64,000 bases of DNA from Pelagomonas calceolata (taxonomy: Eukaryota): contig CAKKNE010000005.1 in the NCBI GenBank assembly GCA_918797485.1, positions 5,022,001 to 5,086,000 of the forward strand. Reading direction: 5' to 3'. The translations under genes and the position numbers were made by a program. Numbering within the stretch: the stretch's first letter is position 1; each line of letters opens with the position of its first letter. Under the pieces are notes generated by a model. That model was not told the origin of the DNA and ran no database searches. It was given only the letters and a program-made list of their open reading frames with translations. Of this stretch, positions 2,728-28,257 are shown piece after piece.

Positions 2728-4090
2728 ATGGGTAAGACCATCCGCGGCGCCCGTAAGGGCAAGAACTCCATCTTCACGGCGCACACGCGCCTGCGCAAGG
2801 GCCCCGTGCGCCTGCGCAAGATCGACTACGCCGAAAAGTGCGCGGGCCGCGTCCCTCTCTCGCGACTCTTCGACCGACCGATTGGCGCAACGGCAGCGCG
2901 TCAGATTCCAGTCCTGAAGGTTACGTGTTCGAATCACGTATCGGTCACAGCAGCACTGAGCCTCGGTGGTCCGGGGGGTGGACTTCAGTTCCACAGCCGT
3001 TTCGCGACGGAGCGGTTCGATTCCGTCTGGGCTGCGACTGCTGGATTGGTGTAGTGGTTATCACGTCTGCTTTACACGCAGTAGGTCACCGGTTCGAGCC
3101 CGGTATCCAGTAGAGAGCGTCGGAGAGAGCGCGCGAGGGCACGCCGGTCACGCGTTTTTTCCCCACTCGCAGGGAGGGCTACGTCAAGGGCGTCGTGAAG
3201 GCCATCGTCCACGAGTCGGGCCGCGGCGCGCCCATCGCGAAGGTCCAGTTCCAGAATGCGTACCGGTATCAGAGGGATACGGAGCTCTTCGTCGCGGCCG
3301 AGGGCATGCACGAGGGCGCGTTCGTGTACTGCGGCGCCAAGGCGCAGCTGGCGGTCGGCAACGTGCTGCCGCTGAAAGCGATCCCCGAGGGCACGGTCGT
3401 GTGCAACGTCGAGGCCAAGCTCGTGCGCGGGCCGCGTCCGCTTCTCTTCAATCCGACCGATTGGCGCAACGGTAGCGCGTCAGATTCCAGTCCTGAAGGT
3501 TACGTGTTCGAATCACGTATCGGTCACAGCAGCACTGAGCCTCGGTGGTCCGGGGGGTGGACTTCAGTTCCACAGCCGTTTCGCGACGGAGCGGTTCGAT
3601 TCCGTCTGGGCTGCGTTATACACACCATCGTCGAGAGGCGACAAGAGAGCTCCTGGTCACCCGCACGTCCACGCAGGGCGACCGCGGCGCGTTCGCGCGG
3701 TGCTCGGGCGACTACGCCGTCGTCGTGACGCACGACGAGGAGAAGGGCACGACGAAGCTGCGCCTGCCGTCGGGCGGCAAGAAGAGCGTCAAGTCCGTGT
3801 GCCGCGCCATGGTCGGCATCGTCGCGGGCGGCGGCCGCACGGACAAGCCCATGCTCAAGGCGGGCCGGGCATACCACAAGTATCGCGTGAAGCGCAACGA
3901 GTGGCCCAAGGTTAGGGGTGTTGCGATGAACCCCGTGGAGCACCCGCACGGCGGCGGCAACCACCAGCACATTGGTCATCCTTCCACTACTCGTAGAGAT
4001 GATGTTGCGGGCAAGAAGGTCGGTCTGATCGCGGCGCGGCGAACGGGCCGGCTCCGCGGCATCAAGAAGACGGCGGTGGACAAGGACTAG
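2728..4090 (+). CDS. RPL8: 60S ribosomal protein uL2 (L8); exons 2728-2837, 3173-3422, 3677-4090; 257 aa
   Basis: [11 protein letters not shown]..., HESGRGAP and [25 protein letters not shown]. Removing two GT-AG introns restores DYAEK|EGYVKG and EAKL|GDRG. Confidence 0.97.
2876..2947 (+). tRNA. trnW: tRNA-Trp(CCA), copy 1
   Basis: Acceptor stem GACCGAT/ATCGGTC, D arm GCGC-AACGGCA-GCGC, anticodon arm TCAGA-TTCCAGT-CCTGA, T arm ACGTG-TTCGAAT-CACGT; 72 nt. Confidence 0.93.
2950..3036 (+). tRNA. trnU: tRNA-Sec(UCA), copy 1
   Basis: 87 nt with a eukaryote-type 9/4 fold: 6-bp D stem CCTCGG-TGGT-CCGGGG, anticodon arm GTGGA-CTTCAGT-TCCAC, long variable arm CCGTT-TCGC-GACGG, 4-bp T stem GCGG-TTCGATT-CCGT, G discriminator. 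Confidence 0.92.
3040..3112 (+). tRNA. trnV: tRNA-Val(UAC)
   Basis: Acceptor GCTGGAT/ATCCAGT, D arm GGTGTAGTGGTTATCAC, anticodon arm CTGC-TTTACAC-GCAG, T arm ACCGG-TTCGAGC-CCGGT; 73 nt. Confidence 0.93.
3455..3526 (+). tRNA. trnW: tRNA-Trp(CCA), copy 2
   Basis: Identical to copy 1 except one D-loop base (CGGTAGC vs CGGCAGC). Confidence 0.93.
3529..3615 (+). tRNA. trnU: tRNA-Sec(UCA), copy 2
   Basis: Same sequence as 2950-3036. Confidence 0.92.
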
Positions 4091-4896: not shown

Positions 4897-7026
4897 TTAG
4901 GAATACTTCTCCACGTCCAGCCCCACGCCCTCGACGTCGTAGAACGTCTGATCCGAAGGCAGGTAGCCGACCATGGCCCGGTCCAGGCCGGGCAGGACGT
5001 CCGGCGGCACGACCCGGAACCCCATGGCCTCGTACCATTTGACCAATTTCCCGGAGCCGCCGTCGCGCTCGACGAAGAGCATGTACCTGAAATCGAGCGC
5101 GCGGCACGCCCGCATCGCCTCCTTGAAGAGGACCTCGCCGATGTTCCGCCCCCGCGCCGCCGGCTCGACGAAGACGGCGACGCCCGCCGCGACCTTGGCC
5201 GTGCCCCTTCTGGAGTCCCGTTCCACTTTTGTAGAATCGCCGCCGTGGAGAATGGCGGAGAGGGCGTCGTCCGTGCCCGGCGTCGGCTCGTCGGGCAGCC
5301 TCACTAAGTAGTACCCGAGTTCCAGTCCTGTTGATGTGACGGCGGCCGTCCGCAATTCCCCATTCTTGATTGAGGTGGCGACGGTCGCGCGGTCGTTCTG
5401 GGCCGCGCGCGCGAAGGATCGTTGGGTCACGAGGCGCCGACGTCGGCGCCTCTTCCTAAGTTTGGGATAGAGCTGCCGCGGGGCCGCGGAGAGGACCGCC
5501 TCCAACTCGTCGCTCGACGCGGTGGCGACGCCGTCGACGACGTCGAGGCGCGCCGTCTGAATCGCGCTTGCGTCCCGGTAGTCCGCGGGGAGGCGCCGCC
5601 GCCGCGCGAGTGGTCTGCGTGTGAGCTGGTCCGAACTCTACCGGACGGCGAGCGACGAGTCGCGGCGATGGCGTATATGAAGCGGGACGCCGGCCGCGCA
5701 CCGCTTCGGTAAGATGGCGGGGCACCAGGGCCCGCGGACGTCGCCCGAGTCGACGTAGAACTTCGTGCCCGAGCCCCTATCTTTTATGGTACGTACCTGG
5801 CCGTCGAAGTCTCCATAAAAACGCGTCGCCAGGCCGTAGGGCGGCAGGCGTTTTTGTAGAGCGTAGGCCGCGCCGTCTGATGTGGTAGCGATCGTGAGAG
5901 GGCCGTGTTTTGTCGAGACGCATCTTAACGCACCGGGCTCCGGTAGTTGATTGGATTCGCAGACCTCGACGCGCCTTGCGAGCTTCGGCGCCGCCTCCAC
6001 TTCCACTAGATCCGCGTCGTCGCCGAGCCACGGTCTTATGGAGTGGGCGAAGGCGTCTCCCACCTTCGTCGAGTAGCCCCCTTCCAGGCCCAGCACGACG
6101 GGGACGCCTAAAGTTTCAGCGGCATCTTTTGTAGCGCGCCCTATTCGTACATAATCCTGGGGTCGCAGGCGGCACTGCGCCAGCGGGTCCTCGAGCAGCG
6201 CATCGAAGCCCGCGCTCACTACTAGTAACCCATTGCTTCCTGAAACACGATCTGCCACAAACTTCAGACAGCGGTCCCAAGCGCCGCAGAACTCGACGGC
6301 GTCGGCGCCTCTTTTCACACACGCATTCAATCGATTGCCCAGTAAACCTTGGTCGGAAGGGTCATCACCCGTGTTCGGCCAGAGCGGCGCCTGGTGCGCC
6401 GACGCGTACATTACTCGAGCTTCCTCGTCGGCGTACGCGGCGACGCCGTTGCCGTGATGGACATCAAAATCCAGCAAAGCCACCCAGTCCTTGCCGAGGA
6501 CGTCGAGGGCGTAGGCGGCCGCGCCCGCCGCGAAGTTGTACAAGCAGAAGCCGTCGGCCACGTGCCGCGACGCGTGGTGGCCGGGTGGACGCGAGAGCGC
6601 CACCGCCAATTCATTTTGGATAGAAGCGTGGTCCACGGCGTCGAGCCACAGCGATTGGGCCCGCAGCATCGTCTGATGCGATCCCCGTTTCGCGTACGTG
6701 TCGACCGCTAGTCGCGTGCGCCCGAAGCGGTAGAACTTTGACGCTTTTTTCACTCGTGAAATATGCTGGTTTGAGTGTACGCGTCGGACCGACTCTTCAG
6801 CGTCTGTCCTCGCTTGTTTGAGGTACTGCCAGGTCGCGTCGGTCTTTTCGAGCGCTCGCCGGCAGTCGTCGACGCGGCGCGGCGTCTCGGGGTGGCCCTT
6901 GGCGTTGCTGTGCGTCGCGTGTCTGGGGTCGTAGAAGATCTTGACGCCGCTTGGATGCAATGCGTTTACTCCGCCCGAATGCAGGGCGACGCTGTGCACC
7001 AATGCGCAGCGCCAGAGCAGCCTCAT
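4897..7026 (-). CDS. Putative fusion: N-terminal targeting-like peptide + HDAC-family deacetylase + Rieske-like domain + GNAT acetyltransferase (about 680 aa; intron 5615-5701)
   Basis: HDAC motifs RPPGHHA, GFCLYN, DFDVHHGNG, SAGFDA and LEGGY. GNAT motifs VFVEPAARGRNIGEVL and LVKWYEAMGF. The two ORFs share a frame and are joined by an 87-nt GT-AG intron. Confidence 0.75.
5615..5701 (-). other. Spliceosomal intron (87 nt), related in sequence to intron 46363-46424
   Basis: GTGCGCGGCCGGCGTCC...ATACGCCATCGCCGCGACTC...CTCACACGCAG; it contains the only in-frame stop between the two ORFs. Confidence 0.8.
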
Positions 7027-25785: not shown

Positions 25786-28257
25786 ATGGCGGACCTGCGC
25801 CGCCGATTAGTGGCCTTCTACCAGCGCCACAACCCGACGAACCTGGCCCAGATCGACGCCATCCTGACGGCCTGGGGCCACAACGAGTCGGAACTGTGGC
25901 GCCAGATGGCCGCCAAGTACGGCCAGCGCGCCGTCGACGACGCGGCCGCGGCGTGGCGCGCGCCGCCGGCGACCGGCTTCTCGGCGCCAGACCCTCGAAT
26001 CGCCGCGGCGAAGCGGGTCGCCGCCGCCGCGAGCGCCGCGCCGCCGACCGTGCTCCGGCCGATCGCGCCGCCCGCCTTCGGCGCGGGCTTCGCCGCCGCG
26101 CCGCGGCCCTTCGCGGGCCGCGGCTTCGGCCCGGCGCCCCCGTACGCGCCGCCGCCACAACCGTACGCGCCGCCGCGACCGTACGCGCCGCCGCGCCCGG
26201 CCGCGCCACCACCACCCTGGGACCTGCTCGCCGAGGTCTGCGCCGTCGCGGCGCTGCCGCGCGAGGCTTCCGAGCGCGGGGACAACGTCGACGCCATCGA
26301 GAAAGTGCAGGAGGAGCGCCACGGGACTGCGACGCACGAGGCCTGCTGCGCGCGGCGCTGCCTCCAAAAATTGTCAGAGGCCGGCAAGGCCTTCACGCGC
26401 CAGAGCGGCGGGTTTTTGAAGGCGCTGCGCGGGGGCGCGCCCCTCGTGGCGTCCGTCGGCGGCGCGTCTGGGAGTGCCGACACGACCTTCGTGTTAGTGG
26501 ACCGAATGTTGTTGCTGAGCCTGCGGGCGTCGCTGAACTTGGTCCCGGCGCCGGCGTCGACGGCCCACGCGGCCGGCGCCACGGCCGTCGCGGCCTTCGC
26601 CGCGCAGATCCAGCGCGCGGCGCCGTGGCGCGCGGCCGTCGCCGTCGCGGCGGCGCGGCCCGCGGCGGCGGGACCCAGCGCCGACGACGCCGCGCGGGCC
26701 CTGCGGCGCGACCTCAAGGACGCGAAGCACAGAGCCAAGCGCGAGACGGGCGACGCGATCGCCGCGCTGCGCCGCCTCACCGCGCGGCGGGTCCCGGGTT
26801 TGAATGACCCCTGGGCCTTACCCCGGGTCACGAACGAGTTCTTCGACGCGCTCTCGGCCATCAACCCCGACGGCTGCAGCGACGGCCGGAAGCTCTCGGA
26901 GACGCCCGACGGCGACGCGCTCGCGGCGCTGCTGGACGTGCTCCGCTTCGCGGCCGGCCTCGACGCGCTGTCGCAGAAGCAGCAGGCGCGTCGTCCCGCG
27001 CGCTAGTTACTTTCGGGGGGGCGGGGGGTCCGTCGGCCCGCGCCGCCGGGGGTCGGCACCAGTCCTGGTGTCGGGCCCGGCGGAGGGACTCGTCCGCTCG
27101 TTTCGATCGACTGGGCCCTCTTGAGAGAGACTCGGGACCGGACGGCGGAGGGACTCGTGGCATCTACGGTCGTCGGTCGTGCGGCCGGAGGCAATCCGTC
27201 GCGGAAGCGTCGTCGGCGTGTGCAACCGCCCGATTCTGCGCCCGCACGCGCGCGTCGAAAACCGTCGCAGGAACCCGTCGAGCGTCGCGCCTCGCAGGCC
27301 CGCGTCCGGGAGTGGACGGGGAGCGTCGGTGCCGTCGTCGAACGGGCCGCCGAGCTCTCCGGCGGCTTCCAGCGGCGCAGGGGCGACGCATCGGGCGGCG
27401 GCGCGCGCGCGGAGACCGAGCCGAAGCCGCCAGTCGCCGAGGACTGGGGCTCCGCGCGCCTCGGCATGTCGGCCGCGGCGCCGGCGGGCGTAGCCACCGA
27501 GAAGCGGCCCGCGGCGGCGCCCGAGGCCGTCGCCGCGCCGGAGGAAACTCAAAAGAGACGCCGCGTCGCGGGCCGCCTCGTGGCGTACGACGACGAGGGC
27601 CACCGGCCCAAGGCCTGGCGCCGCGACCTGTCGCCCAAAAAGCCGGCGACGCGACGGGCGTCCAAGGGCGCGCGCGTCGCCTTCGCGGACGGGTCCAAGC
27701 CCGTCGCTGTTGATACGCCGGCGCCCGTCGCGGATCCGCAGCGCCAGGCGCAGCAGCGGCGGCTCTTAGGAAGGCGCATGGATCGCGCGATCTGGGACGC
27801 GTTCCGGAGCCGCGAGTTCGCGCCCATCGAGGCCTTGTTGGCGCACGGCGCCGACGCCGGGTATGTCAGGACCGAGGGCGGCGGCGAGACGGCGCTCATG
27901 GCCGCCGCGTACCACGGGCGCGAAGAGATCTGCCGAGCTTTATTGTCGCGGGGCGCGGACCCGCGCAAACAGGACAAGCGGGGCCACGACGCCGCGGCGC
28001 TGGCCCGCGTCAAGGGCAACGCGACGCTCGCGACGCTGCTGGACGGCGTCTGCCTCGAGCCCGTGGCCGCGCCGCCGCGCGCGGCGACACCCCCGCCCCC
28101 GGAAGCGCCTGCGGCGGCCAAGTCGCCGAAGCAGCGCGGCGACGACGTCCACCCGCGGCTTCTCAAGAAAAACGGCATGGACGACGACGACGACGCGGCC
28201 GACGACGAGGAGGCCATCTCGCGGAGCGTGGCTTTGCCCGAGGCGGAGAGTGGGTAA
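25786..28257 (+). CDS. Hypothetical protein with C-terminal ankyrin repeats; two ORFs probably joined by a GC-AG intron (26986-27270)
   Basis: ORFs 25786..27006 and 27121..28257 share a frame; CAG|GCGCGT...CCGTCGCAG|GAA; ankyrin GETALMAAAYHGREEICRALLSRGAD. Confidence 0.55.

What the first reader, a model, noticed from the sequence alone, without database searches (positions are those of the whole stretch)
2838..3676. Ribosomal protein gene whose introns are polycistronic tRNA cassettes (Trp-Sec-Val and Trp-Sec)
Seen: both RPL8 introns are largely filled by sense-strand tRNA genes with 2-3 nt spacers (Trp-CA-Sec-ACT-Val; Trp-CA-Sec). Known: ribosomal-protein introns classically host snoRNAs, not tRNA arrays. 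Metazoan tRNA-Sec needs upstream external Pol III promoter elements, and trypanosome tRNA-Sec is made by Pol II. Inference: with only 2 nt upstream, tRNA-Sec has no room for its own promoter. It is either cut from a Pol III precursor driven by the tRNA-Trp A/B boxes, or excised from the Pol II pre-mRNA intron by RNase P/Z. Intron 1 has a T6 run (3155-3160), but intron 2 has no T4+ terminator, which favours intron processing for that copy. That would couple selenocysteine-tRNA supply to ribosomal protein expression. Aureococcus is known for a very large selenoproteome. I do not know of this arrangement being described.
Basis: partly seen in the sequence, partly recalled or inferred. Interest (0 to 1): 0.93.

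Follow-up and report, generated by a model that had tools for sequence, protein, structure and literature searches.

The report
tRNA cassettes inside ribosomal-gene introns
In the tiny ocean alga Pelagomonas, both spliced introns of a ribosomal protein gene are packed with tRNA genes, including the selenocysteine tRNA; other tRNA genes appear to sit the same way in other genes' introns, and these tRNAs are likely cut out of messenger-RNA introns instead of being made from their own promoters.

Summary
Confirmed, and wider than first reported. Both introns of the uL2/RPL8 gene are spliced at the predicted ends and hold sense-strand Trp-Sec-Val and Trp-Sec tRNA cassettes. The alga is Pelagomonas calceolata, not Aureococcus.

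A sister lineage keeps the cassettes with compensatory changes; a third carries Arg...Trp-Sec in an Hsp70-family intron. Of 95 informative read-through ORF clusters holding this tRNA-Trp, 72 lie about 30-42 nt behind a splice-donor motif, 23 lie directly behind another tRNA, and none stands alone (biased sample). Hosts include further translation genes.

Five of seven intron types lack a T4 terminator. The unspliced cassette is in poly(A) RNA. No TFIIIC subunit is annotated in the 88% of the species' gene table I could read.

Best reading (0.6): snoRNA-like release of tRNAs from Pol II introns by RNase P and Z. Main rival (0.28): nested Pol III polycistrons; one allele has T6 right after tRNA-Sec. 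The polymerase is not shown, and no mature tRNA data were available.

The parts
2728..2837 (+). uL2/RPL8 coding exon 1
   Evidence: loose ends
2838..3172 (+). intron 1, GT-AG, 335 nt, phase 2; donor motif GTGCGCGGGCCGCGTCC; first tRNA starts 38 nt in
2876..2947 (+). tRNA-Trp(CCA), intact A and B boxes
   Evidence: 59.4 bits
2950..3036 (+). tRNA-Sec(UCA), eukaryotic 9/4 fold, G73, unusual G37; 2-nt spacer CA before it
   Evidence: (62.5 bits)
3040..3112 (+). tRNA-Val(UAC); 3-nt spacer ACT before it; absent from intron 1 of the sister lineage L014
   Evidence: (62.1 bits)
3146..3172 (+). branch-point-like GGTCAC, T6 run (3155-3160) inside the pyrimidine tract, and 3' splice site
   Evidence: branch role inferred
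3173..3422 (+). uL2 coding exon 2
3423..3676 (+). intron 2, GT-AG, 254 nt, phase 0; same donor motif; first tRNA starts 32 nt in; no T4 run in this allele; present unspliced in poly(A) RNA at about 7-14% of exon depth
3455..3526 (+). tRNA-Trp(CCA), one base different from the intron-1 copy
   Evidence: (61.8 bits)
3529..3615 (+). tRNA-Sec(UCA), identical to the intron-1 copy
3655..3676 (+). branch-point-like GGTCAC and 3' splice site of intron 2
   Evidence: branch role inferred
3677..4090 (+). uL2 coding exon 3 to the stop codon
4105..4109 (+). first T5 after the intron-2 cassette, about 490 nt downstream, behind the stop codon

Best explanation
Both introns of the Pelagomonas calceolata uL2/RPL8 gene are spliced and carry sense-strand tRNA cassettes, and the tRNAs are likely cut out of the Pol II-made intron by RNase P and RNase Z, snoRNA-style, as part of what appears to be a lineage-wide arrangement. 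Shown: the tRNA folds, exact splicing, the cassette in unspliced sense poly(A) RNA, conservation in relatives, and a change of host gene in a third lineage. Inferred: Pol II reads RPL8; the spliceosome removes the intron; the lariat is debranched; RNase P cuts 30-38 nt behind the donor; RNase Z and RNase P cut the 2-3 nt spacers; the tail with the branch point is trimmed; CCA is added. tRNA supply, including the only tRNA-Sec copies seen, would then follow transcription of translation genes.
For: (1) Splicing and the unspliced cassette are both in stranded poly(A) RNA. In X21, intron-2 depth outside tRNA-Trp is 135-290 on the sense strand against 0-1 antisense, with exons at 1500-2400. (2) Position rule: donor-to-first-tRNA distance is 38, 32, 32, 33 and 31 nt in five introns of three lineages. 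Of 103 ORF clusters holding the Trp translation, 70 have a donor motif 10-14 codons upstream, 2 more are donor-like by eye, 23 have a Leu or Arg tRNA directly upstream, 8 give no information, and none stands alone. The same patterns hit 2 of 372 control windows at that distance. (3) Arg- and Ala-type tRNAs also lead cassettes right behind a donor (10 cases; L053), so this is not one copied element. (4) No T4 between the last tRNA and the 3' splice site in 5 of 7 intron types; other eukaryotic tRNA-Sec genes have T4 within 50 nt in 47 of 59. (5) tRNA-Sec has a tRNA directly upstream in 5 of 5 pelagophyte contexts against 0 of 57 other eukaryotic ones. (6) The species' gene table lists RNase P subunits, RNase Z, DBR1, PSTK, SepSecS and eEFSec, but no TFIIIC term in about 14,640 of 16,667 rows (PMC9481584 supplement 4).
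Against: No call shows which polymerase makes the tRNA, or that mature tRNA comes from these copies. L022, L093 and L094 have T6 immediately after the Sec discriminator, the textbook terminator position, and intron 1 has T4-T6 42 nt behind Val. The GC-matched terminator control is weak: 3 of 5. A and B boxes are intact. Pol III subunits, Brf1, Bdp1, Maf1 and La are annotated. TFIIIA and SNAPc terms are missing from the same table too, so TFIIIC may simply be undetected or lie in the 12% not held. Both wide samples favour intronic copies (called ORFs; poly(A) reads), and metagenome contigs are often chimeric across the identical tRNA. No pile-up of molecule ends at tRNA borders was seen. In Arabidopsis, ordinary intronic tRNAs did not affect host splicing (PMC6152437).
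Confidence: 0.6

Rival explanations
1. The cassettes are ordinary Pol III units nested in introns. TFIIIC binds the A/B boxes of the first tRNA, Pol III makes a Trp-Sec(-Val) precursor, and RNase P/Z cut it. tRNA-Sec borrows the Trp promoter; the intron only supplies open chromatin.
For: Intact A/B boxes. T6 directly after Sec in one allele (3 loci) and T4-T6 after Val. Pol III, Brf1, Bdp1, La and Maf1 are present. Nested tRNA genes are common in C. elegans (264 of 608; PMC3342880). Dicistronic Pol III pre-tRNAs in yeasts are recalled, from no call.
Against: It does not explain why every informative copy is sense and 30-42 nt behind a donor. Five of seven intron types lack T4, including both introns seen for the sister lineage (L014 intron 1, L090 intron 2). 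No TFIIIC term in 88% of the gene table. No step in depth at the expected Pol III start (143 before Trp, 135-212 after Sec; poly(A) libraries are a poor test).
Confidence: 0.28
2. The tRNA-bearing introns are selfish mobile introns (introner- or SINE-like). Many copies, perhaps the intron-2 duplicate here, are passengers that add little to the tRNA pool.
For: A Trp variant with a compensated T-stem pair sits behind donors at about 15-17 further exon ends, mostly singletons in genes without a Pfam family. The Hsp70-family intron of L053 is absent from relatives 87% identical in protein, and RPL8 is unbroken in Aureococcus. The species has 956 putative introner elements (PMC9481584 supplement 2).
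Against: Trp and Sec change by compensatory pairs between lineages while intron tails diverge beyond alignment. The sister lineage keeps tRNA in both introns. All 19 stored ORFs with a Sec translation run into RPL8 intron tails, and the Sec machinery is present, so at least one copy must work. No terminal inverted repeats or target-site duplications at three introns. Mobility is compatible with the best explanation; only 'non-functional passenger' is the rival part.
Confidence: 0.08
3. The second cassette, or the whole arrangement, is an assembly artefact.
For: The two Trp-Sec blocks differ by one base in 161; chimeric joins across this tRNA occur in short-read assemblies.
Against: Independent metagenome contigs L022 and L077 hold both cassettes (L077 only the 3' part of the first), and L014 holds the first and the start of the second with lineage-specific bases. 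RNA contigs cross exon 2 into Trp, and Trp-Sec into exon 3.
Confidence: 0.01

Closest known systems
Intron-encoded snoRNAs of ribosomal-protein and translation-factor genes (recalled; mentioned as an analogy in PMC2943599)
   Same: Sense-strand small RNA genes in introns of translation genes, present in the Pol II pre-mRNA, at a fixed distance from a splice site, able to change host gene.
   Different: The cargo is polycistronic canonical tRNAs and tRNA-Sec, which need RNase P/Z cuts; the fixed distance is to the 5' splice site; dependence on host transcription is not shown.
Pol II-transcribed tRNA-Sec of Trypanosoma brucei (PMC2943599; abstract and passages)
   Same: tRNA-Sec without its own upstream promoter inside a Pol II unit; that paper suggests intron-encoded tRNAs elsewhere may be Pol II products.
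   Different: There it lies between genes of a trans-spliced polycistron, has a deviant B box and is the only such tRNA. Here it is in cis-spliced introns, keeps its B box and travels with Trp, Val, Arg, Leu and Ala tRNAs.
Nested intronic tRNA genes of Caenorhabditis and Arabidopsis (PMC3342880, PMC4999229, PMC6152437)
   Same: tRNA genes inside introns; in C. elegans the host promoter affects them and sense copies show lower Pol III occupancy.
   Different: Those occur in both orientations and form a fraction of the genes. Here all informative copies are sense, often polycistronic with spacers down to 2-3 nt, and 30-42 nt behind the donor.
GUT15 tRNA-like RNA of Arabidopsis (PMC6152437; abstract and section 9)
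   Same: A tRNA-shaped RNA made from a Pol II intron, slowing splicing of that intron; intron 2 here is retained at about 7-14%.
   Different: A single tRNA-like, non-canonical molecule in a lncRNA; here canonical tRNAs in protein-coding genes.
Introner elements of pelagophytes (PMC9481584 supplement note 3; PMC12130899)
   Same: Similar introns at unrelated, lineage-specific sites; GT and GC donors.
   Different: No terminal inverted repeats or target-site duplications found here; the term tRNA does not occur in PMC12130899.

Membership tests
Eukaryotic tRNA-Sec | UCA anticodon and Rfam RF01852 score above gathering | tested here: met
   62.5 bits against 47, both copies
Eukaryotic tRNA-Sec | 9-bp acceptor, 4-bp T stem, 6-bp D stem, long variable arm, G73 | tested here: met
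   non-standard pairs at 6-81, 8-79 and 28-46; one compensatory variable-arm pair across lineages
Eukaryotic tRNA-Sec | A37 (site of i6A; role recalled) | tested here: not met
   Loop CUUCAGU with G37 in all 8 pelagophyte matches; 86 of the other 89 matches have CUUCAAA. Usual but not strictly defining.
Eukaryotic tRNA-Sec | Serylation and conversion to Sec-tRNA | not testable with these tools
   PSTK, SepSecS and eEFSec are annotated in the species
Spliceosomal (GT-AG) intron | Exact removal from mRNA at GT..AG ends | tested here: met
   joint 3422>3677; exon 1 joined to 3173; P0124
Pol III type-2 tRNA transcription unit | Internal A and B boxes | tested here: met
   Trp and Val sequences; also required by the tRNA fold, so not discriminating
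Pol III type-2 tRNA transcription unit | T run of 4 or more shortly after the last tRNA | tested here: inconclusive
   Absent in window intron 2 and four other intron types; present in intron 1 and one intron-2 allele
Pol III type-2 tRNA transcription unit | TFIIIC in the organism | tested here: inconclusive
   0 hits for 12 terms in about 88% of the gene table; no positive control from related algae
Pol III type-2 tRNA transcription unit | Pol III occupancy, triphosphate 5' end, amanitin resistance | not testable with these tools
   needs bench work
Vertebrate-type tRNA-Sec gene (external TATA/PSE promoter) | TATA at about -30 and PSE at about -70 | tested here: not met
   Those positions lie inside tRNA-Trp; TATA-like words in 0 of 5 pelagophyte and 41 of 57 other eukaryotic contexts
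snoRNA-like intron-encoded RNA | Sense orientation in a spliced intron, present in the host pre-mRNA | tested here: met
snoRNA-like intron-encoded RNA | Mature RNA depends on host Pol II transcription and intron processing | not testable with these tools
   No small-RNA or inhibitor data; no end pile-ups at tRNA borders in poly(A) reads
Introner (intron-generating transposon) | Similar introns at unrelated sites, present in some relatives and absent in others | tested here: met
Introner (intron-generating transposon) | Terminal inverted repeats and target-site duplications (DNA-transposon type) | tested here: not met
   None at the ends of three introns

The most novel reading that the evidence does not exclude
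Pelagomonas makes most or all of its cytosolic tRNAs from spliceosomal introns of Pol II genes, has given up TFIIIC-dependent tRNA transcription, and spreads tRNA genes as whole tRNA-bearing introns that move between host genes. It would be the first eukaryote whose tRNA supply is wired to mRNA transcription and splicing.
Probability: 0.3. Interest if true: 0.96.

Novelty: new variant of a known kind. Interest (0 to 1): 0.86.

Why it matters
Nuclear tRNAs are taken to be Pol III products; trypanosome tRNA-Sec is the tested exception (PMC2943599). An abundant, cultured ocean alga in which many tRNAs sit at a fixed place in introns of translation genes makes Pol II origin of ordinary tRNAs directly testable. 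It would tie tRNA output to host-gene regulation and splicing, and it suggests a route of intron gain in which tRNA genes ride in introns. It also explains a wrong gene model: the NCBI uL2 protein of this species carries 56 extra residues read from intron and tRNA sequence.

Tried and rejected
No whole genome was held, so no genome-wide tRNA census was possible; the metagenome records were not searchable as genomes.
Four alternative splice models of the same length scored lower than, or within a few points of, the GT-AG model against 8 homologues; only the GT-AG model was then checked for identity, and it matches P0124 exactly.
ARAGORN's tRNA-Leu at 27729-27826 is rejected: it lies in a 416-codon ORF and has no Rfam match.
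The idea that the extended donor motif marks tRNA introns only was dropped: it also starts a tRNA-free intron in L053 and a likely one at window 5701 on the minus strand.
The tRNA-Sec pattern found nothing in viral contigs; the tRNA-Trp pattern found nothing in prokaryote genomes.
A possible end of molecules at 3649 (7 molecules, one run only) is not used.
An apparent presence/absence of an intron in an eEF3-like gene rests on a 15-residue match and may be chimeric; not used.
Two of 33 hits are chance and four look like other organisms' tRNA-Trp.
The TFIIIC literature searches gave no data on stramenopiles. Huff et al. 2016 was not held.
Earlier scan notes gave nothing or only the inverse arrangement, introns inside tRNA genes.

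Full report
1. Observation. ARAGORN and Rfam place five tRNA genes on the + strand at 2876-3112 and 3455-3615, in the order Trp-CA-Sec-ACT-Val and Trp-CA-Sec. Both Sec copies score 62.5 bits against a gathering score of 47. They fit the eukaryotic 9/4 fold with G73. The two Trp-Sec blocks differ by one base. The surrounding exons are uL2. The model GT2838-AG3172, GT3423-AG3676 gives 257 residues, identical to P0124, a complete transcript-derived protein.

2. RNA evidence. I laid 4 of the 24 listed runs on 3115-3820. X21 and X24 are stranded poly(A) reads of one sample; X1 and X2 are contigs from two other studies. The joint 3422>3677 stands in 1635 and 197 reads and in both contig sets. Exon 1 is the loose end before 3173 in 2004 and 777 reads and in both contig sets. 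Intron 2 is covered on the sense strand only, at 135-290 outside tRNA-Trp against exon depth of 1500-2400 in X21, so about 7-14% is unspliced. No pile-up of ends at tRNA borders was listed. Reads over tRNA-Trp carry several other flanks: Trp-Trp tandems with 32- and 26-nt spacers (118 and 40 reads), a Trp followed by a branch-point-like word (200 reads), and a Trp variant with a compensated T-stem pair (33 of about 814). No variant bases were listed in the Sec body; 18 loose ends were not shown.

3. Organism. Exon 3 is 100% identical to P. calceolata CAH0378244.1; Aureococcus RPL8 shares 229 of 257 residues. The NCBI model has 29 and 27 extra residues read from intron and tRNA-Trp sequence; no such joint was listed. 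An Aureococcus-identical ORF runs unbroken on an 8.2-kb contig (P0153). The same source reads through introns elsewhere (P0121), so I infer that Aureococcus lacks both introns.

4. Relatives. A eukaryote-type tRNA-Sec pattern gave 96 metagenome loci. Seven carry the G37 type; all are behind tRNA-Trp with spacer CA, and six are in RPL8 introns. L014 and L090 represent a sister lineage (96% protein identity in exon 2). Intron 1 there holds Trp-Sec without Val, intron 2 also begins with Trp, and Trp and Sec each show a compensatory pair. L053 holds Arg(UCU), a 103-nt spacer and Trp-Sec in a 432-nt GC-AG intron of an Hsp70-family (hypoxia-upregulated-1 type) gene. The flanking exons abut exactly in 13 of the 16 homologues examined; the other three are more divergent at that point. 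Relatives 87% identical read through that site on 34-385 kb contigs, so this intron is lineage-specific. After merging duplicates, a tRNA lies directly upstream of Sec in 5 of 5 pelagophyte and 0 of 57 other eukaryotic contexts. T4 follows within 50 nt in 1 of 6 against 47 of 59, but in only 3 of 5 GC-rich controls. Counted by intron type, five lack T4 (window intron 2, L077 intron 2, L014 intron 1, L090 intron 2, L053) and two have it (intron 1; the L022/L093/L094 intron-2 allele, with T6 right after G73).

5. How wide the arrangement is. Gene callers that ignore introns read through these cassettes, so I searched protein collections with translations of Trp-Sec. Of 105 hits I classed 104 (P0003 left out); 103 hold the Trp translation. 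Seventy have a translated donor motif 10-14 codons upstream, 2 more are donor-like by eye, 23 have a Leu- or Arg-type tRNA directly upstream, and 8 start too close to tell. The same patterns hit 11 of 372 control windows, 2 at that distance. The donor cases fall into 27 same-frame groups, at most 24 sites after removing three that are other frames or chimeras. Named hosts by Pfam are uL2, a Thx/bTHX-like ribosomal protein (below cut-off), an ABC protein with 4HB and chromo hits (eEF3-like; label recalled), an L24e-family protein, a cold-shock-domain protein and a cyclophilin. In 10 cases an Arg- or Ala-type tRNA follows a donor directly; these anticodons are inferred from translations. At the Thx site, 14 ORFs show 13 different donor-to-Trp spacers of 11-13 codons: length is kept, sequence is not. 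All 19 stored ORFs with a Sec translation continue into RPL8 intron tails. Limits: contigs are often chimeric across the identical tRNA, so only each single flank is reliable; called ORFs and poly(A) reads both favour intronic copies, so 0 stand-alone copies of 95 is not a census.

6. Machinery. In the species' published gene table (PMC9481584 supplement 4, held to about row 14,640 of 16,667; most of chromosome 6 unseen), Pol III subunits, Brf1, Bdp1, Maf1, La, RNase P subunits, RNase Z, DBR1, PSTK, SepSecS, eEFSec and one uL2 gene are listed. Twelve TFIIIC terms gave 0 hits. TFIIIA and snRNA-activating complex terms gave 0 as well, so this is a lead only. Supplement 5 could not be read.

7. 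Mechanism. Shown: folds, splicing, cassette in pre-mRNA, conservation, host switching. Inferred: release from the Pol II intron by RNase P and RNase Z after splicing (0.6). The fixed sense position across several tRNA types, the missing terminators and the lack of room for a Sec promoter favour it. A nested Pol III polycistron remains possible (0.28), chiefly because of the T6 allele, the intact boxes and the lack of any direct polymerase test. Passenger copies of a mobile intron (0.08) may describe the variant-Trp sites but not the Sec copies. No terminal repeats or target-site duplications were found at three introns.

8. Known systems and novelty. What I saw: PMC2943599 abstract and passages; PMC6152437 abstract and section 9; passages of PMC3342880, PMC4999229, PMC2695483, PMC3531208, PMC5330540, PMC12130899, PMC13578239 and bioRxiv 2025.12.01.691491; PMC9481584 passages and supplement look-ups. 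The genome paper's main text does not contain the word tRNA, and the 2026 review of tRNA genes in photosynthetic organisms does not mention pelagophytes, polycistronic or intronic tRNA genes. Ten searches listed no description of this arrangement; subscription papers and bioRxiv supplements were not covered. It works like intron-encoded snoRNAs and resembles trypanosome tRNA-Sec; membership of either mechanism is untested. I rate it a new variant of a known kind, with a 0.3 chance of being categorically new.

Noticed in passing
L097-L102 (IMG/VR contigs, about 30% GC), e.g. L099:2981-3052: Six viral contigs, one labelled a giant-virus MAG, carry a tRNA-Trp only 2-3 bases different from the Pelagomonas one (two copies compared), with a compensated acceptor pair. 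This points to a pelagophyte host.
   Followed up: partly
window 2983-2989 and 3562-3568: The tRNA-Sec anticodon loop is CUUCAGU (G37, U38), like the neighbouring tRNA-Trp, instead of the usual CUUCAAA; the i6A37 site (role recalled) would be lost.
   Followed up: partly
window 3485 and 3493 (tRNA-Trp anticodon stem): The last pair of the anticodon stem is an A-C mismatch in all six pelagophyte and viral copies compared; no base change was listed there in RNA reads.
   Followed up: no
window 2850-2860 with 3112-3122: Leader and trailer of the intron-1 cassette can pair (11 nt, 82%); similar CTCT/AGAG words flank the intron-2 and L014 cassettes by eye.
   Followed up: no
L053 tRNA-Trp (3077-3149, minus strand): This copy has G19 changed to A, which would damage both the A box and the fold, while the tRNA-Sec behind it is intact.
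   Followed up: no
window 2728-4090; protein CAH0378244.1: The NCBI uL2 model of P. calceolata includes 56 residues read from intron and tRNA-Trp sequence.
   Followed up: yes
window 27729-27826: ARAGORN's tRNA-Leu call is likely false: inside a long ORF and without an Rfam match.
   Followed up: yes
window 5616-5701, minus strand: A likely 86-nt intron with the same extended donor motif and no tRNA; not tested with RNA.
   Followed up: no
window 3677: 45 reads of X21 and 8 of X24 show T instead of G as the first base of exon 3; allele or error not resolved.
   Followed up: no
ORFs P0377, P0414, P0333: Between a donor and the Leu-type tRNA lies about 120-130 nt of conserved sequence that I could not assign; it may be another small RNA in the cassette.
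   Followed up: no
L011 and L070 (GC-rich eukaryotic tRNA-Sec loci): Stand-alone tRNA-Sec genes without T4 within 50 nt; their polymerase may also be unusual.
   Followed up: no
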